Virus record (IMG/VR): IMGVR_UViG_2713896773_000025
Strand: one strand, 5' to 3'
DNA: 32,043 nucleotides
Source: a virus
Taxonomy: Duplodnaviria; Heunggongvirae; Uroviricota; Caudoviricetes
Part shown: one piece after another, positions 2,333 to 27,189 of the stretch
Numbering within the stretch: position 1 is the first letter of the stretch
Layout of the letters: each line of letters begins with the position of its first letter
Translations under genes and position numbers: made by a program
Notes under the pieces: model-generated
Told to the model about the DNA's origin: nothing
Seen by the model: the letters and a program-made list of their open reading frames with translations, nothing else
Databases searched by the model: none

Positions 2333-3226
2333 ATGTCAGCTAAAAATGAACTTGTCGAACTGATGAAAGCAAAAGGTCTTAACCAGACACAGGTCGCCCG
2401 CGCCATTGGTAAGAGCTCGGCCGTAATCAGCCAGTATCTGAATAATAAATACGACGGCGATATTGTATCGCTGGAAAACGATATTCGTAGCTTTATCGAT
2501 CGTCAGCATGAAAAAGAACGTTCGGCACGTATCAGCGTCAAATTTGTTGATACCCCAACAACGCGCAAAGCCGTTGATGTTATACGCATGGCACACGTCG
2601 AAGGTGATATCAACGTGCTCTACGGCGAAGCCGGTCTGGGCAAGACGATGATTTGCAAAGCCTACGTCTCCAAATACCGGGATGCGTTGCTGATTGAGGC
2701 AGACCCTGGCTACACCGCACGGGTAGTCCTGGAAGAGCTCTGTAACCTGCTGGGGCTCAGTACGCGCGGCAATATGCACGAACTCAGCGAGGCCTGCATC
2801 AACAAGCTGCGCGACTCCGGACGCGTGCTGATTATTGATGAAGCCGAGAACCTCCCTCTGCGTGCGCTGGAATCTATCCGCCGCATCCATGACAAAACGG
2901 GGATCGGCATCGTCCTGGTTGGTATGCCTCGCCTGATTCTGAACCTCAAGGGCAAACGCGGTGAGCTCGTACAGCTCTATAGCCGTGTCGGTTTCGCCCT
3001 CAACCTCGGGCATAGCCTGCCGGGTGCTGATATTGACGTCATCGCCAGCAGCGTTCTCCCGGATGGCCTGAATGAAGACCTGAGCAAAGCGCTGTTCAAT
3101 GCGTCAAAAGGTAACGCCCGCCGATTGTTCAAGCTGCTGCGCGGTGCGGTCCGCACCAGCGCGATGAATGATGTTCCGGTCAGCGGTCATATCGTCAACC
3201 AGATAGCTGAAATGCTGATCCATTAA
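2333..3226 (+). CDS. B: MuB-like AAA+ ATPase, transposition target DNA activator (297 aa)
   Basis: Walker A GEAGLGKT and Walker B-like LIIDEAE; N-terminal HTH-like segment; GAGGAAG RBS 7 nt upstream; position immediately after A. Confidence 0.88.
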   Translation: MSAKNELVELMKAKGLNQTQVARAIGKSSAVISQYLNNKYDGDIVSLENDIRSFIDRQHEKERSARISVKFVDTPTTRKAVDVIRMAHVEGDINVLYGEAGLGKTMICKAYVSKYRDALLIEADPGYTARVVLEELCNLLGLSTRGNMHELSEACINKLRDSGRVLIIDEAENLPLRALESIRRIHDKTGIGIVLVGMPRLILNLKGKRGELVQLYSRVGFALNLGHSLPGADIDVIASSVLPDGLNEDLSKALFNASKGNARRLFKLLRGAVRTSAMNDVPVSGHIVNQIAEMLIH

Positions 3227-7580: not shown

Positions 7581-7622
7581 GTCATTACAGCAGGCACTTC
7601 ATAAAGTGCCTGCTGTAATGAC
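7581..7622. repeat. perfect 19-bp inverted repeat with 4-nt loop
   Basis: GTCATTACAGCAGGCACTT cata AAGTGCCTGCTGTAATGAC read directly from sequence; lies between the last early accessory ORF and the gemA RBS. Confidence 0.85.
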
Positions 7623-7641
7623 AACCAACAGGAGAAATATT

Positions 7642-8118
7642 ATGTCCACGCCAGCAAAACGAGGCCTTATAGGTGCAATTAAAGCCGGTCAGGCATATCT
7701 GGGGTGGGATGAGGTAACCTACCGTAGTGTTCTGTCTCGCTTATGCAACGGTAAAACATCATCCACTAAATGCACCCTCGACGAGCTGCAGGCTGTCAGG
7801 GAATATATGCATGACAAGGGTTTTCCTCGCTACTCAGCAAAACACGGTCGACGCCCAAAGGTTGCCAATACGCGCGAGTCAATTCTTTCTAAAATTAACG
7901 CATTACTTGCAGATGCAAAACGTCCGTGGAATTATGCCGAGAAAATGTGCGATCATATGTTTCACGTCAAATACATCGAGTGGTTGACGACTGAACAGTT
8001 AACCAAACTCATGCAGGCTCTCAGCATTGATGCGAGTCGGCGAAAAAAGCGGGAGCGTAATAATGAATCTGGAACAGGTAACGGAGCTGCTGCCATCAGC
8101 AGTGATTCAAATAGCTGA
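7642..8118 (+). CDS. gemA: GemA-like regulatory protein (158 aa)
   Basis: ATG at 7642 with AGGAG RBS; KRGLIGAIKAGQAYLGWDE...YRSVL pattern recalled from the Mu GemA/DUF1018 family; sits immediately before the Mor-like gene. Confidence 0.7.
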   Translation: MSTPAKRGLIGAIKAGQAYLGWDEVTYRSVLSRLCNGKTSSTKCTLDELQAVREYMHDKGFPRYSAKHGRRPKVANTRESILSKINALLADAKRPWNYAEKMCDHMFHVKYIEWLTTEQLTKLMQALSIDASRRKKRERNNESGTGNGAAAISSDSNS

Positions 8119-11850: not shown

Positions 11851-13500
11851 ATGGCCAGAACTAAGTTATCCAGCAAAGATTTTCTTGCCGAACTGGCGGA
11901 ACTTTCCGCCAGTCTTCGTCGCACCATTGAAGCGGAAGATGTGGGCTTTGACCCCTCTGCTGCTGCTGTCGCTGCGCGTCGTGGCCTTGTCGCTGACCCT
12001 GTAACGGGGTTTGAGTACTTTGTGCAGCATTATTTTCCGCACTATGTCCGCCATGCTGCCCGCAGCGAACTGCATAACTATCTCTACAAGCGCCTGCCTG
12101 AAATCATCCAGGCCACGGGGAGCCAGAACGATGCAATAGCGGCTCCCCGTGGTGAAGCCAAATCCACCATCGTGAGTCAGCTTTTTGTCATCTGGTGCAT
12201 TGTGCTGGCGCTCAAGCATTACCCGGTCATCATTATGGACTCCATCGACCAGGCCTATCCGATGCTGGAGGCGATAAAGGCGGAACTGCAGTTTAACCCC
12301 CGTCTGCTGATGGACTTTCCTGAAGCGACGGGCGGTGGCCGCGTCTGGCAGGCCGGGACAATTCTCACCCGCAACGACATTAAGGTGCAGGTCGCCGGTA
12401 GTGGAAAAAAGCTGCGTGGCCTGCGCCATGGCCCGTATCGTCCTGACCTGGCTGTGCTCGATGATATCGAGAACGACGAGCTGGTGCGTAACCCTGAGCA
12501 GCGTGACAAGCTCGATAACTGGCTCAAAAAAACCGTCCTGCCGCTCGGTGGTGCGGGGGCCAAGTTCGATGTGGTGTATATCGGGACAATCCTGCACTAC
12601 GATTCCGTGCTTTCCCGCACCCTTAAAAATCCGCTATGGACGCGGGCCCGGTTCAAAGCGCTCATCAGCTGGCCGCACAATATGTCGCTGTGGGATAAAT
12701 GGGAAGAGATCCTGCGCAACAACGATGAAGATGGTCAGGTTCTGGCGCAGGCATATTACCGTGAGCATCAGGCTGAGATGGATGAAGGAGCTGTTGTTTC
12801 ATGGGCTGCGCGTCCGCTTTATGCATTGATGCTCATCCGCGCCCGTGATGGCCACAGTACCTTTGATGCGGAATATCAGAACGATCCCGTCAGCGGCGAA
12901 GATGCGCCATTTACCGGCTGCATTAACTTCTGGGTCAACCGCCTTAACGAGTGGCGCTTCTATGGCGCATGTGACCCCAGCCTGGGTAAACACGGTAACA
13001 GCCGCGACCCTTCCGCATTACTGGTCGGTGGCTTCAACCGCTTCACCGGCATTCTGGATGTGGTCGAAGCGCGTATCCGTAAGCGTGTGCCGGACAAAAT
13101 TATCTCTGACGTTATCGAGCTGCAGCGGGAATATAACTGTCTGGTCTGGGCGGTCGAGTCCGTCCAGTTCCAGGAGTTCCTGCGCACCGAACTGGTGAAG
13201 CGCTCCGCTGCGATGGGTATCCCCGTTCCTGCCAGGGCCGTCACGCCTTCGGTTGATAAGCTCCTGCGCATTGAGTCACTGCAGCCACATATGGCCAACG
13301 GCCTGATACGACTGCACCCTTCCCAGACAACACTTATCGACCAGCTCCGGCATTTCCCCAAAGCTGACCATGATGACGGGCCAGATGCCCTGCATATGCT
13401 CTGGATGCTGGCCGTTTCCGGCGCTGGTAATTTTGAATTTAAAGCTGTTCCCCGTCGTGGCCATAGCGGAGACAGGTTCGGTCCTTCAGGAGGATTTTGA
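11851..13500 (+). CDS. terminase large subunit, Mu gp28-like (549 aa)
   Basis: Size, position before the portal and a Walker B-like LAVLDDIEND segment followed by a nuclease-like C-terminal half. Confidence 0.88.
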   Translation: MARTKLSSKDFLAELAELSASLRRTIEAEDVGFDPSAAAVAARRGLVADPVTGFEYFVQHYFPHYVRHAARSELHNYLYKRLPEIIQATGSQNDAIAAPRGEAKSTIVSQLFVIWCIVLALKHYPVIIMDSIDQAYPMLEAIKAELQFNPRLLMDFPEATGGGRVWQAGTILTRNDIKVQVAGSGKKLRGLRHGPYRPDLAVLDDIENDELVRNPEQRDKLDNWLKKTVLPLGGAGAKFDVVYIGTILHYDSVLSRTLKNPLWTRARFKALISWPHNMSLWDKWEEILRNNDEDGQVLAQAYYREHQAEMDEGAVVSWAARPLYALMLIRARDGHSTFDAEYQNDPVSGEDAPFTGCINFWVNRLNEWRFYGACDPSLGKHGNSRDPSALLVGGFNRFTGILDVVEARIRKRVPDKIISDVIELQREYNCLVWAVESVQFQEFLRTELVKRSAAMGIPVPARAVTPSVDKLLRIESLQPHMANGLIRLHPSQTTLIDQLRHFPKADHDDGPDALHMLWMLAVSGAGNFEFKAVPRRGHSGDRFGPSGGF

Positions 13501-20076: not shown

Positions 20077-20505
20077 ATGTACGCGAACCGTGAGGACATG
20101 GTCAGGGCGTTTGGTGAGCGTGAGTGCGTGTCGCTCACCGACCGCAGCTATACCGGGCAGATTGACGATGATGTGCTGAACGGCGCACTCATTCAGGCCA
20201 GCGCTGAAATCGACGGTTATCTCTGCGGTCGCTATCCGGTGCCCTGGGCTGATGAGCCCCGTGTTCTCGTCGGTCGCTGCTGCAACATCGCCCGCTACCT
20301 TCTGTGCGGCTCTGAGACCCAGATGACAGATGAAATCCGCGAGCGGTATGAAGACACCGTTCGTTACCTGGAAAAAGTTGCATCCGGGCGAATCAATCTG
20401 GGCCGCACGACGACGGGGGAAGTGGTGAAAAGCGGAACCGGTGCGCGGATGGTGTCTGGTGGTCGCGTCTTCGGGCGTGACCAGACTGGTGGAGGAAGTT
20501 TCTGA
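20077..20505 (+). CDS. Mu gp36-like protein (DUF1320-like) (142 aa)
   Basis: Position and size in the head-tail joining block. Confidence 0.55.
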   Translation: MYANREDMVRAFGERECVSLTDRSYTGQIDDDVLNGALIQASAEIDGYLCGRYPVPWADEPRVLVGRCCNIARYLLCGSETQMTDEIRERYEDTVRYLEKVASGRINLGRTTTGEVVKSGTGARMVSGGRVFGRDQTGGGSF

Positions 20506-21164
20506 TGGTGATTACGGATATCGAAAAAGCCATCGTGGAGCGCCTTCGTAAAGGTATGGGGCGTATGGTGAAGAACGTGCGCTCCTACGGCGGCGAGCTG
20601 GACGGCGAACCTGCGGAGGTGCTGCGCCAGCTCCCTGCGGTCTGGGTGACCTTCGGCGGGGTACAAAAAACCGAGCCGTACAGCACAGCACGGCAACGGT
20701 TTGTCACCCACGGTCGCTTTGTCGTGGTGGTTGGCGAGCGCAGCCTGCGCAGTGAAGAAGCGGCCCGAATGGGGGGGCCGCATGTGCAGGAGGTGGGGAC
20801 GTATATTCTGGTCGCCGCCGTTCGTCGTCTGCTGTCGGGTCAGGATATGGCCGATACGGGTATCAAAATCGACCCGCTCAGCCCTGGTCGCGTGCGCACG
20901 CTCTTCAACACCCAGATAGAATCTCAGGCATTTTCCGTTTTTGCCTGTGAGTTCGACACAAAGTGGATTGAGTCGGCGCTGGAGAACGGGCGTTACCCGC
21001 TCACGGCTGCGCCGGAAGACCATGCTGACCATATGTTCCGGATTTATGGCGGTGCCACTACCGACGATGACCCGGCATGGCTGAGAACCCGACTCAGTTA
21101 CGATCTTAAGCAGCCTGATAAAGACAATGCAGCAGAGGACATTATCAGTCATGAGCAAAATTAA
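20505..21164 (+). CDS. Mu gp37-like protein (DUF1834-like) (219 aa)
   Basis: Position and size; start overlaps upstream stop. Confidence 0.6.
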   Translation: MVITDIEKAIVERLRKGMGRMVKNVRSYGGELDGEPAEVLRQLPAVWVTFGGVQKTEPYSTARQRFVTHGRFVVVVGERSLRSEEAARMGGPHVQEVGTYILVAAVRRLLSGQDMADTGIKIDPLSPGRVRTLFNTQIESQAFSVFACEFDTKWIESALENGRYPLTAAPEDHADHMFRIYGGATTDDDPAWLRTRLSYDLKQPDKDNAAEDIISHEQN

Positions 21165-21372
21165 AGTAAAAGCCGCCAGAGGGTTGAGCGTGCCGCGCGA
21201 AGATAATGCGCGCCGCTACATTACTGATGCGGAACCCCTTGAGGTGGAGAACACCGCTTATTACCAGCGTCAGGTAATGGCCGGTGATCTGATTATTGTC
21301 ACCAGCAGTGACAAGAACACCAAAAGCAAAAGCAGCGAGCCCAGCGCGGAGGTGAACGGTGAGCAGTCCTAA
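21151..21372 (+). CDS. Mu gp38-like small protein (DUF2635-like) (73 aa)
   Basis: Internal ATG at 21151 (MSKIKVK) overlapping the upstream gene end; precedes the sheath gene as in Mu. Confidence 0.5.
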   Translation: MSKIKVKAARGLSVPREDNARRYITDAEPLEVENTAYYQRQVMAGDLIIVTSSDKNTKSKSSEPSAEVNGEQS

Positions 21373-22777
21373 TATCAGCTTTGACACTATCGGTACGAAC
21401 CGCAAGCCGGGTCAGTATATTGAGTTCAACACCCGCCTGGCCGTTCGTACCCTGCCAGGTAACACCCAGAAGGTGCTGATGATTGCGCCAATGCTGGCCT
21501 CCGGTTTGTCTGCACCGCTTGTCATTCAGTCTGTTTTCTCTGATGAAGAAGCTGCGACGTACTTTGGCCGTGGCTCGCTGGCGCATCTGATGGCCACAGC
21601 GGCCATCGGTGCCTACCCCTATCTGCAGCTGCAGATCGTCGGGGTCAGCGATGCGGCCACTGCAACAGCCGCGACGGGCAAAATCGCCCTGACCGGCACA
21701 GCATCTTCCGGCGGGAAGCTGAGCGTGACCATTAATGGTACCCGTATTGATGTCGGTATTTCGGCAGCAGATACGGCGGAGACCATTGCGGCAGCGCTGA
21801 CGGAACTGATTACCCAGAAAGACGGGTTGCCAGTGACGGCAACGGCAAACGCGGGGGAAGTGACCCTGACCTGCCGCCATAAAGGGGCTGTTGGTAACGA
21901 CATTATTGTCTCTTCCGGCGTGACGGCAGCGGGTATCACAGCGGCGACCACCACGCTGGCAGGCGGCAATGTTGATCCGGATATTACGCCAGCGCTGGCA
22001 GCAGCGTTCTCAGCAGGTCATAACATTGTTGTTTGTCCGTTCTCCACCCAGGAGGCGATGACGGCGCTGCGTAACCATCTGACAAACGTCAGCAATGCGA
22101 TGGAACAGCGCGGCGCAATTGGTGTGGGTGGGTGGCGCAAGTCGCTTTCCACCGGCATTGCACTGGCAGCCTCACTTAATGACGGACGTATCACGCTGGG
22201 CTGGCATAGCGGTTCGGTAAAAACACCGGCGCAGATTGCCGCTGCCTATGCTGCTGTTATCGCCAGTGAAGAGGACCCGGCACGCCCGCTGAACACCCTT
22301 GCGATGAGCACGCTGGACGTGACTGCAGTAGAGAGTCAGCCTGGGCGAACTGAGCAGGAGAACGCCCTGCTGAATGGTCTTACGCCGTTTGAGATTGGCC
22401 CCGGTGACAAAGTGCAAATCGTTCGCGCGATCAGCACCTACACCAAAAACGCCCAGGGCGTGGATGATGTGGCGCTGCTGGATATCACCACCATCCGAAC
22501 GCTGGACTATGTGCGCAAGGCCTGCCGTGAACGCATCGCTCTGCGATTCCCGCGCGACAAGCTCAGCTCAAGAACACCTCCGAAGGTACGCAGTGAACTG
22601 CTTGATGTGCTTTACAAGCTGGAGGAGCTGGAGATTGTCGAGGAGGTGGATGCCAACAAAGACGGTCTTATTGTAGAGCGCGATCTGCAGGATGTTAACC
22701 AGCTGAACGGTCGCATCCCTGCGGATGTTGTGAATGGCCTGCACGTCTTTGCCGGTCGAATTGATTTGCTGCTCTGA
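21359..22777 (+). CDS. contractile tail sheath protein, Mu L-like (472 aa, GTG start)
   Basis: Size, Gly/Ala/Thr-rich middle region, and position directly before the tube and chaperone genes. Confidence 0.87.
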   Translation: MSSPNISFDTIGTNRKPGQYIEFNTRLAVRTLPGNTQKVLMIAPMLASGLSAPLVIQSVFSDEEAATYFGRGSLAHLMATAAIGAYPYLQLQIVGVSDAATATAATGKIALTGTASSGGKLSVTINGTRIDVGISAADTAETIAAALTELITQKDGLPVTATANAGEVTLTCRHKGAVGNDIIVSSGVTAAGITAATTTLAGGNVDPDITPALAAAFSAGHNIVVCPFSTQEAMTALRNHLTNVSNAMEQRGAIGVGGWRKSLSTGIALAASLNDGRITLGWHSGSVKTPAQIAAAYAAVIASEEDPARPLNTLAMSTLDVTAVESQPGRTEQENALLNGLTPFEIGPGDKVQIVRAISTYTKNAQGVDDVALLDITTIRTLDYVRKACRERIALRFPRDKLSSRTPPKVRSELLDVLYKLEELEIVEEVDANKDGLIVERDLQDVNQLNGRIPADVVNGLHVFAGRIDLLL

Positions 22778-22790
22778 GGAGTAAACCATA

Positions 22791-23165
22791 ATGGCTCTTG
22801 AAGAATATGTTGGCGCGATCGTCATGGAAGTCGACGGCCAGGAAATTGAAGTGACTGACCTCAAGGAAGATGTGACCACTGGACGCAAGCTGGTTAAGAC
22901 GATGAACAAAACGGGACGTGCCAAAGGTTTTTCCCGTGGCATTGAAGAGATCCAGCTGACCGTTACGGTAGTTATCCCGGAATCCGGCGACCTGAACTGG
23001 GGCGGTATTGAAGGTGCGAAAATCACCCAGTATCCACTTAACAGCAGCGGTAAACGTGTTTCTTACCTGGACTGTTTCAGCACTCAGGTCGGGGCTCAGT
23101 ATACCGTCGACAACGAAGCGAAGCGCGATATCACCATGAATGCGCTTCGTCGGGTGGAGGAATAA
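22791..23165 (+). CDS. tail tube protein, Mu M-like (124 aa)
   Basis: Immediately follows the sheath gene; size typical of tube proteins. Confidence 0.75.
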   Translation: MALEEYVGAIVMEVDGQEIEVTDLKEDVTTGRKLVKTMNKTGRAKGFSRGIEEIQLTVTVVIPESGDLNWGGIEGAKITQYPLNSSGKRVSYLDCFSTQVGAQYTVDNEAKRDITMNALRRVEE

Positions 23166-23549
23166 ATGGAAAAGCAGCAACTTTTATATGGCGTTAAATG
23201 CGGTGATAAAGTCCATTTTGACTTTGCCGTCAGGCTGCCTGTGGTGAGCGATACCATTGAAGCGCTGCGGGCAACCGATGAAGCCTGCGGCACTACCGAA
23301 GGTGCAGCCGCAAACATGTATTACCGCGTTGCGGTGATGGCGTGTGCAATTACTTCCCTCGGAGACCTGCAGAAGGAAGAAATCACGGCAGAGCTGTTAC
23401 TTAACGAACTGAATGATGATGATTTCGATCTCATCGATGCTCAGATTGAAGCCATTAAAAAAAAGCGGATGGATTTGAACAAAAGCTCACCGGGTACCGA
23501 ACCCTCGTCCTTGCCCTCGGGCGATACGGGATCAGTGAACAACAAATAG
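23166..23549 (+). CDS. tail assembly chaperone, short (in-frame) form (127 aa)
   Basis: Acidic small protein between tube and tape measure; contains A_AAA_AAG slippery heptamer near its 3' end. Confidence 0.7.
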   Translation: MEKQQLLYGVKCGDKVHFDFAVRLPVVSDTIEALRATDEACGTTEGAAANMYYRVAVMACAITSLGDLQKEEITAELLLNELNDDDFDLIDAQIEAIKKKRMDLNKSSPGTEPSSLPSGDTGSVNNK

Positions 23550-23689
23550 GAAGCATGACCCGAACGGAACTCGACGGCTACACCGAAGCGCTTGCCCGGT
23601 TACATGGAAAGAAAACCGGGCAAACCACCACCCGTACAACCCGCACTGTCAAATCGCAACGCCGGAAGAAAGTCGGCAAACGGAGATAA
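23166..23689 (+). CDS. tail assembly chaperone, -1 frameshift-extended form (about 175 aa)
   Basis: Fusion of frame-0 codons up to 23465 with the -1 frame 23465..23689; extension is basic (KKTGQTTTRTTRTVKSQRRKKVGKRR); matches the conserved G/GT-type arrangement upstream of tape-measure genes. Confidence 0.6.
23459..23465 (+). promoter_or_regulatory. -1 programmed ribosomal frameshift slippery heptamer A_AAA_AAG
   Basis: Heptamer is in the correct register of the chaperone frame; the -1 frame is open from here to a TAA at 23687..23689, four nt before the tape-measure ATG. Confidence 0.65.
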
Positions 23690-23692
23690 TCC

Positions 23693-25861
23693 ATGGCGCG
23701 TAACTTACAACTGGCGCTGCAGCTGCTTGCCCGTGATACCGGCTCTAAAGTGCTTAAGCAGGCACTGCAGGGCATCAGCCGTGATACCAAAGCGGCGCAA
23801 AAGACCGATGACGAGCTGGCGAAATCCCGCCAGCAGAACTCAACCACAGCGATTCGTGCCTCCCGTTCTCTGATTGAGGAATACCGTCGCGCCAGCTCGG
23901 CGCGATCTACCCTTGGTATTCGTTCTGAGCGCGATATTCAGCGTGAAATACAGCAGACCATGGCGGCCTACAACCGCCTTACCCGCACAGGCATGCTGTC
24001 CGCGAATGAGCAGAATCGGGCTTTCAGGGCCATGACTGACAGGGTCAAAACGCTGCGGACTGAACTTGGTGGCGTGAATGACTCAATGACGCGCATGCAG
24101 CGCTTTCGTGCTGCTGGTTCCAGCGTTGCTGCAGTTGCTGGCGGGATTGCTGCTGCAGGGGCCGTATTATCAACACCAGTATCTAAACAGATGGACTATC
24201 GCCAGCGACTTGCAATGATGGCCAATACTGCTTATGCCGATGAAGGGCTGCAAGGTCGCAGAAAAGGAATGGTGGAGATGGATTCGATGGTTCGCCAGGC
24301 TGTTCGTGCTGGCGGCGGAACAAAAGAATCAGCAGCTGATACCCTTGATACAATGCTGGCTTCAGGGGCTGTTGATATGCCGTCAGCAAAGGTGATGCTA
24401 CCTTTAATTCAAAAATATTCCACAGCCACTGGCGCAGCTCCAGAAGATTTGGCAAATATTGCCATAAAATTAAAACAATCGTTTGGCATAAAAGACGGTG
24501 AGCTTGAGTCTGCACTTAATATGGCAATTAGCGCTGGGCAAAGTGGCTCTTTTGAATTGAAAGATATGGCTAAGTGGCTTCCTAAGCAGCTTGCCAGTGC
24601 TGGCAATGTCGGTATGAAAGGTCTTGATGATTTTGCCGTCTTGCTTGGCTGGAACCAGGCGTCAGCTATTACATCAGGTTCACCGGACGAGGCCGGTAAT
24701 AACCTTAATAATTTATTGCTAAAGCTGAATAGTCAGGATGCTGCTAACGCTGCAGCACGGATTAAACTACCCAGCGGTAAAGGAATTGACCTCTCTGGAA
24801 GTCTTGCAAAAGCTGTTGGTAACGGTATAAATCCTCTAGAAGCTTTTAACACGATTGTTGATAAAATTGTGGCTTCAAATCCAGCATATAAAAAACTTGA
24901 AGATAAACTCAAAACAGCACCGGAAAGTGAACGTAAAAATATAATTAGTTCGCAAGCAAGGATTCTTGAAGGTTCTGGTATAGGTAAAATTATTGCTGAC
25001 CAGCAGGCGCTATTAGCTCTATTAGGGTATAGAGGGAATAAAAAATACACCCAAGACGTAATTTCAGGGGCGAATTCACAACGTAATTTACCAGTTGGTA
25101 ATACTGCCGGTAACATCAACTTTGCTTTAATGTCAGAACAGCCGGGATATAAAACTGGGCAGTTAAAAAACGAACAGGACTTTGCTGCAATGGATTCCAT
25201 TGCCCCTTTATCTGATGCACTGGGTGACATTTCAGAAAAATTAACCAAATATGCTGGTGAGTATCCGGGGCTAACCACTGCGATTGCAGGTGCCACCACT
25301 GGCATTAAAGCCATGACAGCAGCGGCTGTAGCTTTTGCCGGGCTCAATTTCCTGACGGGGGGCGGAATAAAAATGCCTGGTTCTCCTGCAGGGGGAGTTC
25401 CGTCTGCTGGCGGTACTGCTCTGGGGCGCACCTGGTCCGCTATCCGGGGTGGTGCAGGTAAAGTTCTGGGGCGCGTTGCTGCTCCGCTGGCACTCTACCA
25501 GGGCATGAAGGATGCGCCGCTCGTTCATGTTGAGCGAGGCGATGCTGATGCGCGTGCGAGACTCAAGGTCGACAATTATTCCAGTGAGTCAGCACGCATG
25601 CTGGATGCAGTAAAAGCCCGCCCCGGATTGCTGGATGCCGTGGATGAGATCAAATCATGGTGGAGTTCACCGGCCACTATGGGTCAAAACACACCAGCAA
25701 CCACAGGCGTACCGTCTTATCTGCTGCCCCAGCAGCAACAAAAATCACAACCAATTAACCTCACCACAAAGCTGGTATTAGACGGACGTGAAATTGCATC
25801 AGCTGTTAATGAATACAACGGCGAACAATCCGTTCGCGGCTCAACAGGAGGCCCGCAGTGA
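23693..25861 (+). CDS. tail tape measure protein (722 aa)
   Basis: Long Ala/Gly-rich helical protein after the chaperone pair; central portion is AT-rich relative to flanks. Confidence 0.88.
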   Translation: MARNLQLALQLLARDTGSKVLKQALQGISRDTKAAQKTDDELAKSRQQNSTTAIRASRSLIEEYRRASSARSTLGIRSERDIQREIQQTMAAYNRLTRTGMLSANEQNRAFRAMTDRVKTLRTELGGVNDSMTRMQRFRAAGSSVAAVAGGIAAAGAVLSTPVSKQMDYRQRLAMMANTAYADEGLQGRRKGMVEMDSMVRQAVRAGGGTKESAADTLDTMLASGAVDMPSAKVMLPLIQKYSTATGAAPEDLANIAIKLKQSFGIKDGELESALNMAISAGQSGSFELKDMAKWLPKQLASAGNVGMKGLDDFAVLLGWNQASAITSGSPDEAGNNLNNLLLKLNSQDAANAAARIKLPSGKGIDLSGSLAKAVGNGINPLEAFNTIVDKIVASNPAYKKLEDKLKTAPESERKNIISSQARILEGSGIGKIIADQQALLALLGYRGNKKYTQDVISGANSQRNLPVGNTAGNINFALMSEQPGYKTGQLKNEQDFAAMDSIAPLSDALGDISEKLTKYAGEYPGLTTAIAGATTGIKAMTAAAVAFAGLNFLTGGGIKMPGSPAGGVPSAGGTALGRTWSAIRGGAGKVLGRVAAPLALYQGMKDAPLVHVERGDADARARLKVDNYSSESARMLDAVKARPGLLDAVDEIKSWWSSPATMGQNTPATTGVPSYLLPQQQQKSQPINLTTKLVLDGREIASAVNEYNGEQSVRGSTGGPQ

Positions 25862-27189
25862 GCTGGGAAGATTCATTACAGGATGCCTCATTCAGGGGCG
25901 TCCGCTTTGATGTGGTTAATACCCGTGACAGCGCCAGTCGCGACATTGCGACGTATGAGTATCCCTATGTCGACGGTGGTGATGTTGATGATCTTGGCCG
26001 CAAGCCTCGTAACCTGCGGATGACAGTCCTTTTCTGGGGTGATGATTATGATGTGCGGCTGCAGGCGTTTCTGGCCGCACTGGATACTCGCGGTAGCGCA
26101 GAATTAATTCATCCCGTTTTCGGCTCCATGACGGGCATGCAGTGCATTGAGTATCAGGCATCGCATGAAGCGGAGAACGTTGATTACTGCGTTGTCGAAG
26201 TGGTCTTTATCCAGGGGGGACTTAATCTGCCTTTCTTTGGCAGCGATTTCCCGCTGTCGAAAGCTGATATCGTTTTCAACCAGGCGCAATCCGCTCTGGA
26301 GAAAGCCCAGACGGCCATCGACAATATTCTCTCGCCTCTGCGTACAGCGAAAAAGTGGATGAAAAAAGCGAAATCGCTGGCAACCACGACGCTGAATATG
26401 GTGACCGTGCTTAAGGGGGAACTGACGGGATTTGTCAGTACCACCTCGGATTTTGTTAATTACCCAAAATCGTTCATGAATGACCTGCAGAGTGCGCTGA
26501 GTCTGACGTCGTTTCAGTCCAAATCAAGTGTCAGTAATAATCCAGGAAGCTATTCACAGTCCTCAGACGTTTCCGGCACAGCAGGCATCGTGATGGCCGA
26601 CTGGAAGAATGGCCGTAACAATCTGCAGGATGTGGCCGCATTACCTCAGCAGATAGTGACCGGGAAAAAAACGGTTGCTGTTGCCGTTCCGGCAGGCTCA
26701 TCAACCTCGGATATTACCGAGCTGGTAACGGCGGTAAAAACTCAGGTTGCAATCCAGCTGGCACTTGATGCTTCCGACATACTCAGTGACAGCAGCATCA
26801 GCGATATTCTGTCTCCCGTTGATATTGAGCAGATCACCAACGACACCAGGACGGCCATTCAGGAGGCAATCGACCAGACGCGGGACACCTTTGCTGCTGA
26901 TACGCAAAACCTGAGTGCCGGTGAAACACCTGGTGGCGTGACCTGGCAACCCGTGGTTGAAGGTCTCAAGGATATCGCCCTGACCGTTCAGGAGCTGGGC
27001 TCAGCGGTTATTACCAGCAGACCACCACTGACTACGCGAGTGGTATTGTCCGACACAAACCTGCATTTGCTGGCCCACCTGTGGTATGAGGACTACACGC
27101 GCGCCGCCGAGTTGCTGCGTCTCAATCCGACACTACGTAATCCTAACAATATCAAAGCCGGTGACGTTCTGAATGCCTACTCAAGATAA
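25858..27189 (+). CDS. Mu N-like DNA circularisation protein (443 aa, GTG start)
   Basis: N-terminal ASFRGVRFDV...YEYPYVDGGDVDDLG resembles the DNA-circularisation N-terminal domain; follows the tape measure as in Mu. Confidence 0.72.
   Translation: MSWEDSLQDASFRGVRFDVVNTRDSASRDIATYEYPYVDGGDVDDLGRKPRNLRMTVLFWGDDYDVRLQAFLAALDTRGSAELIHPVFGSMTGMQCIEYQASHEAENVDYCVVEVVFIQGGLNLPFFGSDFPLSKADIVFNQAQSALEKAQTAIDNILSPLRTAKKWMKKAKSLATTTLNMVTVLKGELTGFVSTTSDFVNYPKSFMNDLQSALSLTSFQSKSSVSNNPGSYSQSSDVSGTAGIVMADWKNGRNNLQDVAALPQQIVTGKKTVAVAVPAGSSTSDITELVTAVKTQVAIQLALDASDILSDSSISDILSPVDIEQITNDTRTAIQEAIDQTRDTFAADTQNLSAGETPGGVTWQPVVEGLKDIALTVQELGSAVITSRPPLTTRVVLSDTNLHLLAHLWYEDYTRAAELLRLNPTLRNPNNIKAGDVLNAYSR

What the first reader, a model, noticed from the sequence alone, without database searches (positions are those of the whole stretch)
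23459..23689. Programmed -1 frameshift at A_AAA_AAG in the tail assembly chaperone
The heptamer at 23459..23465 is in the correct register of the chaperone frame, and the -1 frame is open from it to a TAA at 23687..23689, four nt before the tape-measure start. The predicted extension is strongly basic. This is the conserved two-product chaperone arrangement of long-tailed phages. The ORF track misses it because the extension is under 60 aa as a separate ORF.
Basis: partly seen in the sequence, partly recalled or inferred. Interest (0 to 1): 0.4.

Follow-up and report, generated by a model that had tools for sequence, protein, structure and literature searches.

The report
Tail chaperone -1 frameshift site
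A Mu-like prophage makes a short and a long form of its tail-assembly chaperone from one gene, most likely by ribosomes slipping back one base at a conserved A_AAA_AAG; this is a well-supported but ordinary example of a recoding trick known in long-tailed phages since the 1990s.

Summary
A_AAA_AAG at 23459-23465 is in register with the 127-codon chaperone ORF (23166-23549). That ORF lies between the tail tube gene and the tape-measure gene of a Mu-like prophage. The -1 frame opens exactly at the heptamer, after a TAA at 23456-23458. It has no start-like codon for 30 codons and runs 74 codons to TAA 23687-23689, 3 nt before the tape-measure ATG. The heptamer alone is not unusual: AAAAAAG occurs 9 times against 5.7 expected, and 3 copies are in register. 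Conservation makes the case. Of 77 sequences, 73 (59 distinct) keep exactly A8+G in register with a 68-85 codon -1 ORF. The extension protein is as conserved as the chaperone domain, and its third codon positions vary most even before its first Met (p=1e-4). The fold matches the HK97 tail assembly chaperone and the Mu frameshift product FS-gp41. No stimulatory RNA structure or upstream Shine-Dalgarno-like sequence is conserved. Best reading: programmed -1 ribosomal frameshifting gives an acidic 127-aa product and a 174-aa fusion with a basic tail, as in lambda G/GT. Transcriptional slippage on the A8 run would give the same protein and cannot be excluded. This is a new member of a known kind, and interest is low.

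The parts
23166..23549 (+). Zero-frame chaperone ORF (127 aa, acidic, pI 4.5), the G-like product. Residues 1-100 form the conserved chaperone domain. Residues 101-127 form a poorly conserved S/P/T-rich tail.
23456..23458 (+). TAA in the -1 frame directly upstream of the heptamer. It closes the -1 frame, so only a shift at the heptamer gives the long product.
   Evidence: One search shows this for the window. The same stop is in the same place in 54 of 59 distinct relatives.
23457..23464 (+). A8 homopolymer run that contains the heptamer's six A residues (three Lys codons, AAA AAA AAG).
   Evidence: The run is seen. It is exactly 8 A followed by G in all 59 distinct relatives, whereas upstream Lys codons use AAA:AAG at 107:76.
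23459..23465 (+). Slippery heptamer A_AAA_AAG, in register with the chaperone frame. The next base, C at 23466, is invariant.
   Evidence: The register was read. The heptamer is conserved in register in 73 of 77 sequences. The 3' base is C in 59 of 59 distinct sequences. A_AAA_AAG is the most shift-prone heptamer in E. coli and is the dnaX site (PMC5009743).
23465..23689 (+). -1 frame extension (74 codons plus TAA), the T-like part. The predicted fusion is join(23166..23465, 23465..23689), 174 aa with pI 8.4. It has a helical segment followed by a disordered Lys/Arg-rich tail.
   Evidence: Translation is. The frame has no stop in 59 of 59 distinct relatives, while the other two frames carry 2.5-2.8 stops each and are never open. 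Mean pairwise identity is 0.51. Third positions are the most variable ([0.31,0.31,0.47] for codons 1-28 and [0.29,0.23,0.57] for codons 29-50), with phase-permutation p=1e-4. The AF2 helix at residues 84-119 spans the junction and residues 150-174 are disordered.
23555..23557 (+). First start-like codon in the -1 frame, corresponding to Met 31 of the extension. It is invariant in relatives and would give a 44-aa stand-alone ORF, which some records annotate as a separate gene.
   Evidence: The ORF matches phrog_11893 and is annotated as a separate hypothetical protein in MK388859. The preceding Shine-Dalgarno-like sequence is not conserved, and the zero-frame stop overlaps this codon (ATGA) in only 24 of 59 relatives.
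23693..25861 (+). Tape measure protein gene (722 aa), the presumed client of the chaperone.
   Evidence: It matches Pfam PhageMin_Tail at E 7e-22 and phrog_794 at E 1e-206. In relatives the -1 ORF stop lies from -1 to 3 nt from this start.
22791..23165 (+). Tail tube gene (124 aa) immediately upstream. Its stop abuts the chaperone ATG.
   Evidence: It matches phrog_185 'tail tube protein' at E 4e-33.
21359..22777 (+). Tail sheath gene (472 aa). It shows that the tail is contractile.
   Evidence: It matches the Pfam Phage_sheath_1 and Phage_sheath_1C domains and phrog_165 at E 5e-171.

Best explanation
This is the G/GT-type recoding site of the tail assembly chaperone of a Mu-like, contractile-tailed prophage.

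Most ribosomes read 23166-23549 and release an acidic 127-aa chaperone. A minority reach codons AAA-AAG of A_AAA_AAG (23459-23465). There the two Lys-tRNAs slip back one base and re-pair on AAA-AAA. Translation continues in the -1 frame to TAA 23687-23689. The result is a 174-aa fusion: the chaperone domain (residues 1-100) joined through a continuous helix to a 74-aa extension with a Lys/Arg-rich tail.

By analogy with lambda gpG/gpGT, the shared domain would coat the tape-measure protein made from the next gene. The extension would recruit the tail tube subunit. The slip rate would fix the ratio of the two forms.

The shift appears to depend on the heptamer itself, because no conserved RNA structure or upstream Shine-Dalgarno-like stimulator was found.

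What is shown: the anatomy, the conservation, the coding signature of the -1 frame and the chaperone fold. What is inferred: the ribosomal nature of the slip, its efficiency, and the roles of the two products.
For: 1. Anatomy. The heptamer is in register. The -1 frame opens at the heptamer after a TAA and has no start-like codon for 30 codons. It ends 3 nt before the tape-measure ATG.

2. Conservation. Of 77 sequences, 73 have A_AAA_AAG in register with a 68-85 codon -1 ORF. These include relatives from Citrobacter, Trabulsiella, Kosakonia, Pectobacterium, Serratia, Erwinia, Morganella, a Klebsiella phage and IMG/VR contigs, with chaperone identity down to about 40%. All 59 distinct sequences have exactly A8+G+C, although Lys codons elsewhere in the gene vary (107 AAA, 76 AAG).

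3. The -1 frame codes for protein.
- It has no stops in 59 of 59 sequences, while the other two frames are never open.
- Extension identity is 0.51, against 0.56 for the chaperone domain and 0.32 for the zero-frame tail.
- The third position of the -1 frame is the most variable even in the 30 codons upstream of the first Met (phase-permutation p=1e-4, bootstrap CI 0.07-0.25).

5. Published background. A_AAA_AAG is the most shift-prone heptamer in E. coli. The conserved chaperone frameshift uses -1, -2 or +1 in different phages, and Mu uses -2 (PMC5009743; PMC2628397).

6. Natural A9 alleles (L020 and L078/P0001) encode exactly the predicted 174-aa fusion as one ORF.
Against: There is no experimental evidence for either product.

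No stimulatory element was found. The downstream fold is no better than shuffles (z +1.1). The alignment fold gives -1.1 kcal/mol with no covarying pairs. There is no Rfam hit. No Shine-Dalgarno-like motif appears in the conserved upstream context. Efficiency therefore cannot be argued from the sequence.

The heptamer lies in an A8 run, so insertion of one A by RNA polymerase would give the identical protein.

An invariant Met inside the extension often overlaps the zero-frame stop as ATGA. This leaves room for an extra, separately initiated 44-aa product.

Sequence-level membership in Pfam Gp41_Mu is below threshold, and hhalign against Mu gp41 is not significant.
Confidence: 0.85

Rival explanations
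1. The two products are the same, but they arise by transcriptional slippage. RNA polymerase stutters on the A8 template run (23457-23464) and adds one A to a fraction of transcripts. On those transcripts the chaperone domain and the extension are in one frame.
For: The run is exactly 8 A in all 59 distinct relatives. A9 DNA alleles give exactly the predicted fusion. Slippage on runs of 9 A is well documented in bacteria, and runs of 8 A appear productive in some IS elements (PMC1088944). The first Lys codon, whose first two A residues are not part of the heptamer, is also invariant.
Against: Selection against slippage-prone runs generally becomes evident at 9 nt rather than 8 (PMC1088944). 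In slippage-using IS elements the run length varies between 8 and 9. Here the length, the register, the following G and the 3' C are all fixed, which is what a ribosomal heptamer requires. The invariant first Lys can be explained as a protein constraint. A_AAA_AAG alone is highly shift-prone in enterobacteria (PMC5009743).
Confidence: 0.08
2. There is no recoding. The downstream ORF is a separate small gene (44 aa, ATG 23555 to TAA 23689), translated on its own or by coupling to the chaperone stop. Some genome records annotate it this way.
For: The Met is invariant. The zero-frame stop overlaps it as ATGA in 24 of 59 relatives. The window has an AGGA a few nt upstream. MK388859 annotates a separate hypothetical protein there, and a PHROG family (phrog_11893) exists for the fragment.
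Against: The 30 codons between the heptamer and this Met are conserved as protein in the -1 frame (LALGRYG motif). They show the -1-frame wobble pattern at p=1e-4. They contain no stop in 59 of 59 sequences, yet no start codon could express them. The Shine-Dalgarno-like sequence is not conserved, and the zero-frame stop lies 23-59 nt upstream of the Met in 16 of 59 relatives. This reading also does not explain the invariance of the heptamer at synonymous sites.
Confidence: 0.04
3. It is a chance coincidence: an ordinary Lys-Lys-Lys stretch next to an accidentally open alternative frame.
For: AAAAAAG is not enriched in the window (9 against 5.65 expected). Two other in-register copies (8043 and 12405) are evidently silent, with -1 ORFs of 3 and 11 codons.
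Against: Conservation of the site, the register, the frame openness and the protein sequence across 59 distinct relatives argues against chance. So do the position between the tube and tape-measure genes and the chaperone fold.
Confidence: 0.01

Closest known systems
Phage lambda gpG / gpGT tail assembly chaperone frameshift (Levin, Hendrix and Casjens 1993; Xu, Hendrix and Duda 2004, 2013, 2014; as summarised in PMC5009743)
   Same: The gene sits directly upstream of the tape-measure gene. A -1 shift at a heptamer ending in AAG occurs late in the chaperone ORF. The extension ORF has no start codon of its own and ends at the tape-measure start. No stimulatory RNA structure is evident here. The design gives one abundant short product and one rarer fusion.
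   Different: The heptamer is A_AAA_AAG rather than lambda's G_GGA_AAG (from my own knowledge). This phage has a contractile tail, so the extension's partner would be a tube protein that polymerises inside a sheath. The extension is short (74 aa) with a very basic disordered tail. There is no detectable sequence similarity to G or T.
Phage Mu gp41 / FS-gp41 (UniProt P0DJY4)
   Same: The gene order is the same: sheath, tube, chaperone, a gap of about 140 nt, then tape measure. The predicted fusion's best viral fold match is FS-gp41 (E 1.1e-3). There is a weak Pfam Gp41_Mu match. The rest of the window is Mu-like.
   Different: Mu's extension lies in the +1 frame, reached by a -2 shift at a G-rich site (...CGG GGG CGA...; -2 according to PMC5009743 and PMC2628397). 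Here it is a -1 shift at A_AAA_AAG. The extension sequences are unrelated by eye. The chaperone domains are not significantly similar by profile comparison (hhalign probability 3.7%).
E. coli dnaX tau/gamma frameshift cassette
   Same: The slippery heptamer A_AAA_AAG is identical and is decoded by the single enterobacterial tRNA-Lys (PMC5009743).
   Different: dnaX has an upstream Shine-Dalgarno-like stimulator and a downstream stem-loop and shifts at about 50% (from my own knowledge, with the general description in PMC5009743). Neither element is found or conserved here. In dnaX the shifted frame stops almost at once and gives a shorter product. Here the shifted frame gives a longer one.
HK97 tail assembly chaperone (PDB 2ob9) and B. 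subtilis prophage protein YqbN (PDB 3klu)
   Different: Sequence identity is 5-8%. The similarity is at fold level only, and the model itself is a prediction.

Membership tests
G/GT-type tail assembly chaperone frameshift of long-tailed phages (Xu et al. 2004) | The gene pair lies between the major tail (tube) gene and the tape-measure gene, on the same strand. | tested here: met
   The tube gene is at 22791-23165 (phrog_185), the chaperone at 23166-23549 and the tape-measure gene at 23693-25861 (PhageMin_Tail, phrog_794).
G/GT-type tail assembly chaperone frameshift of long-tailed phages (Xu et al. 2004) | The second ORF overlaps the 3' part of the first in another frame, lacks its own initiation signals over its conserved part, and ends at the tape-measure gene. 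| tested here: met
   The -1 frame opens at 23459 after a TAA. The first start-like codon is at 23555. The stop at 23687-23689 is 3 nt before the ATG at 23693. In relatives the distance to the tape-measure start is -1 to 3 nt.
G/GT-type tail assembly chaperone frameshift of long-tailed phages (Xu et al. 2004) | A slippery sequence lies in the correct register within the overlap. | tested here: met
   A_AAA_AAG at 23459-23465 has zero-frame codons AAA AAG.
G/GT-type tail assembly chaperone frameshift of long-tailed phages (Xu et al. 2004) | The site and the shifted-frame coding capacity are conserved in relatives. | tested here: met
   The arrangement is present in 73 of 77 sequences (59 of 59 distinct). 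The -1 frame wobble signature and the extension identity of 0.51 support coding.
G/GT-type tail assembly chaperone frameshift of long-tailed phages (Xu et al. 2004) | The first ORF has the tail assembly chaperone fold or family. | tested here: met
G/GT-type tail assembly chaperone frameshift of long-tailed phages (Xu et al. 2004) | Two products are made in a fixed ratio, both are needed for tail assembly, and neither is present in the virion. | not testable with these tools
   This needs proteomics or genetics of the induced prophage.
Pfam PF23746 Gp41_Mu | The score reaches the family's gathering threshold (27 bits). | tested here: not met
   The score is 24.0 bits at E 4e-5, covering residues 8-99 against profile positions 3-96 of 107. 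hhalign of the family alignment against Mu gp41 gives probability 3.7%. Only a fold-level link to FS-gp41 exists. It is therefore not filed as a Gp41_Mu member on sequence grounds.
dnaX-type A_AAA_AAG cassette | The A_AAA_AAG shift site is present. | tested here: met
dnaX-type A_AAA_AAG cassette | An upstream Shine-Dalgarno-like stimulator and a downstream stem-loop are present. | tested here: not met
   No Shine-Dalgarno-like motif appears in the 12 nt upstream contexts. The downstream MFE has z +1.1. The consensus structure gives -1.1 kcal/mol, 4 pairs and no covariation. There is no Rfam hit. Pseudoknots were not searched.
Programmed transcriptional slippage sites (T. thermophilus dnaX and IS-element type) | There is a homopolymer run long enough for RNA polymerase slippage (usually 9 or more) whose length, not register, is what is conserved. 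| tested here: inconclusive
   The run is 8 A in 59 of 59 relatives, at the lower edge of what has been reported as productive (PMC1088944). Register and the flanking G and C are conserved too, which favours but does not prove a ribosomal mechanism.

The most novel reading that the evidence does not exclude
The A8 tract may be more than a ribosomal slip site. It could act on three levels at once. First, it could support ribosomal -1 frameshifting. Second, it could support RNA polymerase stuttering. Third, it could be a mutable DNA homopolymer. Its A9 alleles, seen in two different lineages (L020 and L078/P0001), hard-wire the fusion. An A7 allele (L008) abolishes it. Prophage populations would then carry heritable variants with different short-to-long chaperone ratios. 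In addition, the invariant Met with its frequent ATGA overlap could give a third product, a free 44-aa basic peptide.
Probability: 0.1. Interest if true: 0.4.

Novelty: new member of a known kind. Interest (0 to 1): 0.22.

Why it matters
The main value is for annotation. In the closest RefSeq genome (NZ_CP070045) the chaperone is called 'hypothetical protein' and the 134 nt that carry the extension are left unannotated. In Klebsiella phage ST405-OXA48phi1.1 the two parts are annotated as separate hypothetical proteins. The correct feature is join(23166..23465, 23465..23689) with ribosomal_slippage.

The case also shows that within Mu-like contractile-tailed phages the same two-product design is reached by different slips. 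This enterobacterial clade uses -1 at A_AAA_AAG. Mu itself uses -2 at a G-rich site, and at least one distant relative (L076) also uses the +1/-2 frame.

The site appears to work without a conserved stimulatory structure. That makes it a compact natural test case for heptamer-only frameshifting in enterobacteria. None of this would surprise a specialist.

Tried and rejected
- **Downstream stimulatory RNA.** The single-sequence folds of 23466-23560 and 23430-23530 are no more stable than shuffles (z +1.1 and +0.4). RNAalifold on 17 diverse relatives gives 4 pairs, -1.1 kcal/mol and no compensatory changes. Rfam gives nothing relevant. I rejected a conserved hairpin. Pseudoknots were not tested.
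- **Upstream Shine-Dalgarno-like stimulator.** None is visible in the aligned upstream contexts.
- **Close phage relatives for annotation transfer.** Searches of the phage collection found only a Klebsiella phage at 53% protein identity, with no frameshift annotated.
- **Sequence search of solved structures.** There was nothing significant.
- **NCBIfam.** There was no family for the chaperone or the fusion.
- **Profile comparison with Mu gp41.** It was not significant, so I do not claim sequence-family membership.
- **Promoter and terminator scan.** There is nothing on the + strand that would separate the two ORFs.
- **Antisense coding as the source of the periodicity.** No minus-strand ORF spans 23465-23689; the longest are 33-35 aa and one of 89 aa covering only the 3' part.
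- **Other heptamers in the window.** This includes a G7 at 20771 with a 57-codon -1 ORF. They are not conserved or have short -1 ORFs.
- **Not run.** I ran no further search on the extension alone, because the DNA loci had already answered the question.

Full report
**What is in the sequence**

The window carries a Mu-like transposable prophage. All of its late genes are on the + strand. Around the finding the gene order is:
- tail sheath, 21359-22777 (Pfam Phage_sheath_1 and 1C; phrog_165);
- tail tube, 22791-23165 (phrog_185);
- a 127-codon ORF, 23166-23549 (phrog_508 'tail assembly chaperone', E 2e-37; Pfam Gp41_Mu at 24 bits, just under the 27-bit cut-off);
- a 143-nt stretch with no ORF of 60 aa or more;
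- the tape-measure gene, 23693-25861 (PhageMin_Tail; phrog_794);
- Mu N-, P- and gp45-like baseplate genes.

The sequence at the site reads ...GCC ATT AAA AAA AAG CGG ATG... in the chaperone frame. A_AAA_AAG at 23459-23465 is therefore in the canonical X_XXY_YYZ register. It lies inside an A8 run (23457-23464).

After a -1 slip the reading continues GCG GAT GGA... for 74 codons to TAA 23687-23689. A 3-nt spacer (TCC) separates this stop from the tape-measure ATG.

The -1 frame is closed by TAA 23456-23458 immediately before the heptamer. It contains no ATG, GTG or TTG until 23555. The predicted fusion is 174 aa. The zero-frame product is acidic (pI 4.5). The extension is very basic (pI 11.0, 17 K/R against 6 D/E), with 12 K/R and no acidic residue in its last 28 positions.

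**Is it more than chance?**

The heptamer alone is not. AAAAAAG occurs 9 times in the window against 5.65 +/- 2.19 in shuffles. There are 28 in-register XXXYYYZ heptamers in the + strand genes, and three of them are AAAAAAG (8043, 12405 and 23459). Only the one at 23459 is followed by a long -1 ORF. The median open length in the -1 frame is 8 codons, and 1.9% of positions reach 74. It is also the only one whose -1 ORF runs beyond the gene's own stop up to the next gene. The decisive evidence is comparative.

**Comparative evidence**

I collected 76 related loci:
- one E. coli chromosome;
- ten species-representative genomes from Citrobacter, Trabulsiella, Kosakonia, Pectobacterium, Serratia, Symbiopectobacterium, Erwinia and Morganella;
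- Klebsiella phage ST405-OXA48phi1.1;
- 64 IMG/VR contigs.

Counting the window, 73 of 77 sequences have A_AAA_AAG in register, followed by a -1 ORF of 68-85 codons. The four exceptions are explicable:
- L050 ends at a contig edge.
- L076 is a 26%-identical relative whose homologous extension sits in the +1/-2 frame, as in Mu.
- L020 has A9, which fuses the two parts into one 174-aa ORF.
- L008 (a Symbiopectobacterium MAG) has A7 plus a second frame break and looks like a pseudogene.

Among the 59 distinct nucleotide sequences:
- The run is always exactly A8, followed by G and then C. Lys codons elsewhere in the same gene are 107 AAA to 76 AAG, so the synonymous sites of the three Lys codons are under selection.
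- The -1 frame has no stop in 59 of 59. The zero and +1 frames carry on average 2.5 and 2.8 stops over the same span and are never open.
- In 54 of 59 a -1-frame TAA sits immediately upstream of the heptamer.
- The -1 stop lies between -1 and 3 nt from the tape-measure start.

The extension protein is nearly as conserved as the chaperone domain. Mean pairwise identity is 0.51 against 0.56, with invariant positions in an L-x-LG-x-x-G...M...EL...L-x-G...KS-x-R pattern. The zero-frame tail is poorly conserved (0.32) and varies from 10 to 30 residues.

Nucleotide diversity by codon position of the -1 frame is [0.31, 0.31, 0.47] for codons 1-28 and [0.29, 0.23, 0.57] for codons 29-50. The chaperone domain in its own frame gives [0.34, 0.23, 0.58]. 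In the overlap, the most variable position is the second position of the zero frame. That is the opposite of what a coding zero frame would show.

For the 30 codons that precede the first Met of the extension, the excess at -1-frame third positions is 0.16 (bootstrap 95% CI 0.07-0.25). A phase permutation gives p=1e-4. This stretch is therefore translated in the -1 frame, yet it has no start codon. Only a frame change from the chaperone ORF can express it.

**Identity of the protein**

No relative with a solved structure is found by sequence. I modelled P0001, a natural A9 allele that encodes the fusion as one ORF at 90% identity to the predicted window product, using a 45-sequence alignment. 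Mean pLDDT is 80.7, and it is above 90 for residues 1-100. One long helix (84-119) runs straight through the junction. Two short helices follow, and the basic tail (150-174) is disordered.

**Mechanism**

The best-supported mechanism is tandem -1 slippage of the two Lys-tRNAs on A_AAA_AAG. [quoted passage not shown] The reason is that the single tRNA-Lys pairs better with AAA than with AAG. It is also the natural dnaX site (PMC5009743). The same review notes that a 3' C tends to favour shifting, and the base after the heptamer is C in all 59 sequences.

Unlike dnaX, no stimulators are evident. The downstream region folds no better than shuffles. No structure is conserved or supported by covariation. 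No Rfam family matches. No Shine-Dalgarno-like motif is conserved upstream. The tail-chaperone frameshift is known to run at a low level: the lambda G:GT ratio is about 30:1 (PMC5009743). A stimulator-free site is therefore plausible.

The functional model is inferred from lambda and was not tested here. The shared domain would bind the tape-measure protein. The extension would recruit the tube subunit. Both would leave the finished tail.

**Rivals**

*Transcriptional slippage on the A8 run* would produce the identical protein, and sequence analysis cannot exclude it. Three points weigh against it as the main route. Selection against slippage-prone runs usually appears at 9 nt (PMC1088944). 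In IS elements that use it the run length drifts between 8 and 9. Here the register and the flanking bases are fixed as well.

*A separately initiated 44-aa ORF from the invariant Met (23555)* is how some records annotate the region (phrog_11893). In 24 of 59 relatives the zero-frame stop overlaps that ATG as ATGA. This reading fails on three counts. It does not explain the coding signature of the 30 upstream codons. It does not explain the invariant heptamer. It does not explain the 16 of 59 relatives whose zero-frame stop lies 23-59 nt upstream, with no conserved Shine-Dalgarno-like sequence. It could exist as an additional minor product.

*Pure chance* is excluded by the conservation.

**Comparison with what is known**

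This is the conserved two-product tail-chaperone arrangement described for lambda G/GT. Xu, Hendrix and Duda (2004) generalised it to most long-tailed phages, including Mu, FluMu and P2 (as cited in PMC2628397, and PMC5009743).

The Mu genome has the same layout: gp41, a 144-nt gap and then the tape-measure gene. Its extension, however, is in the +1 frame downstream of a CGG GGG CGA site. This is consistent with the published -2 shift, and the Mu extension is unrelated in sequence to the one here. The present clade therefore reaches the same design with a different slip (-1) and the dnaX-type heptamer.

I found no paper describing this particular clade's site. Current annotations miss it.

**Verdict**

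The finding is a new, currently unannotated member of a well-known kind of recoding site.
- Confidence that a conserved frame change yields a chaperone-extension fusion: about 0.93.
- Confidence that it is ribosomal -1 frameshifting at A_AAA_AAG: about 0.85.
- Interest: low (0.22).

Noticed in passing
L020:2794-2803; L078:1791-1800 (protein P0001); L008:2785-2792: The homopolymer varies at the DNA level. Two different lineages carry A9, which encodes the whole 174-aa fusion as a single ORF. P0001 is seen on 3 contigs. A Symbiopectobacterium MAG carries A7 plus a second frame break. These may be real alleles or homopolymer assembly errors; the reads were not available.
   Followed up: partly
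window 23555-23558 and the same position in relatives: The Met at extension residue 31 is invariant in all 59 distinct relatives. In 24 of them its ATG overlaps the zero-frame stop as ATGA, a typical translational-coupling arrangement. The window itself stops 9 nt earlier at TAG 23547-23549. A free 44-aa basic peptide might be a third product.
   Followed up: partly
L076:2492-3000: In the most distant relative (26% identity) the segment homologous to the extension (IVGLLKLGVDY...MAMPDGEADNLLEAW) lies in the +1/-2 frame of the chaperone ORF, as in Mu, not in the -1 frame. The direction of the slip has therefore changed within this chaperone family. The slip site itself was not identified.
   Followed up: partly
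window 8043-8049 and 12405-12411: Two more A_AAA_AAG heptamers lie in register inside + strand ORFs (7606-8118 and 11851-13500). Their -1 frames stop after 3 and 11 codons, so a slip there would only truncate the protein. They are probably tolerated background shiftiness.
   Followed up: no
window 20771-20777: A G7 run lies in register in the DUF1834/gp37-like gene (20505-21164) and is followed by a 57-codon open -1 frame. The run is present as G7 in only 2 of the 76 related loci, so it is most likely fortuitous.
   Followed up: yes
L001:6769-6902 (NZ_CP070045) and L012:2878-2994 (MK388859): Public annotations miss the recoding. PGAP leaves the extension unannotated and calls the chaperone and the tube 'hypothetical protein'. 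The Klebsiella phage record annotates the 3' part as a separate 38-aa hypothetical protein.
   Followed up: yes
window 20666-26046; whole window: This part of the window is 99.7% identical to IMG/VR contig IMGVR_UViG_2778261231_000009 (L013). The exact 127-aa chaperone (P0004) is recorded from Salmonella enterica on 203 contigs. Only 1 of 5426 complete E. coli genomes carries a close copy (93% nt). The element is a Mu-like transposable prophage, with a 685-aa transposase-like ORF at 230-2287 and a 297-aa ORF at 2333-3226 in the position of Mu B that has weak ATPase-family matches.
   Followed up: partly
window 23466-23468 and relatives: The zero-frame codon after the heptamer is CGG in 52 of 59 distinct relatives (CGA, CGC or CTG in the rest). 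From my own knowledge CGG is a rare Arg codon in enterobacteria. The -1-frame Ala (GCN) at the same place is invariant. The data cannot say whether the constraint is on the Ala, on the 3' context of the slip site, or on both.
   Followed up: no
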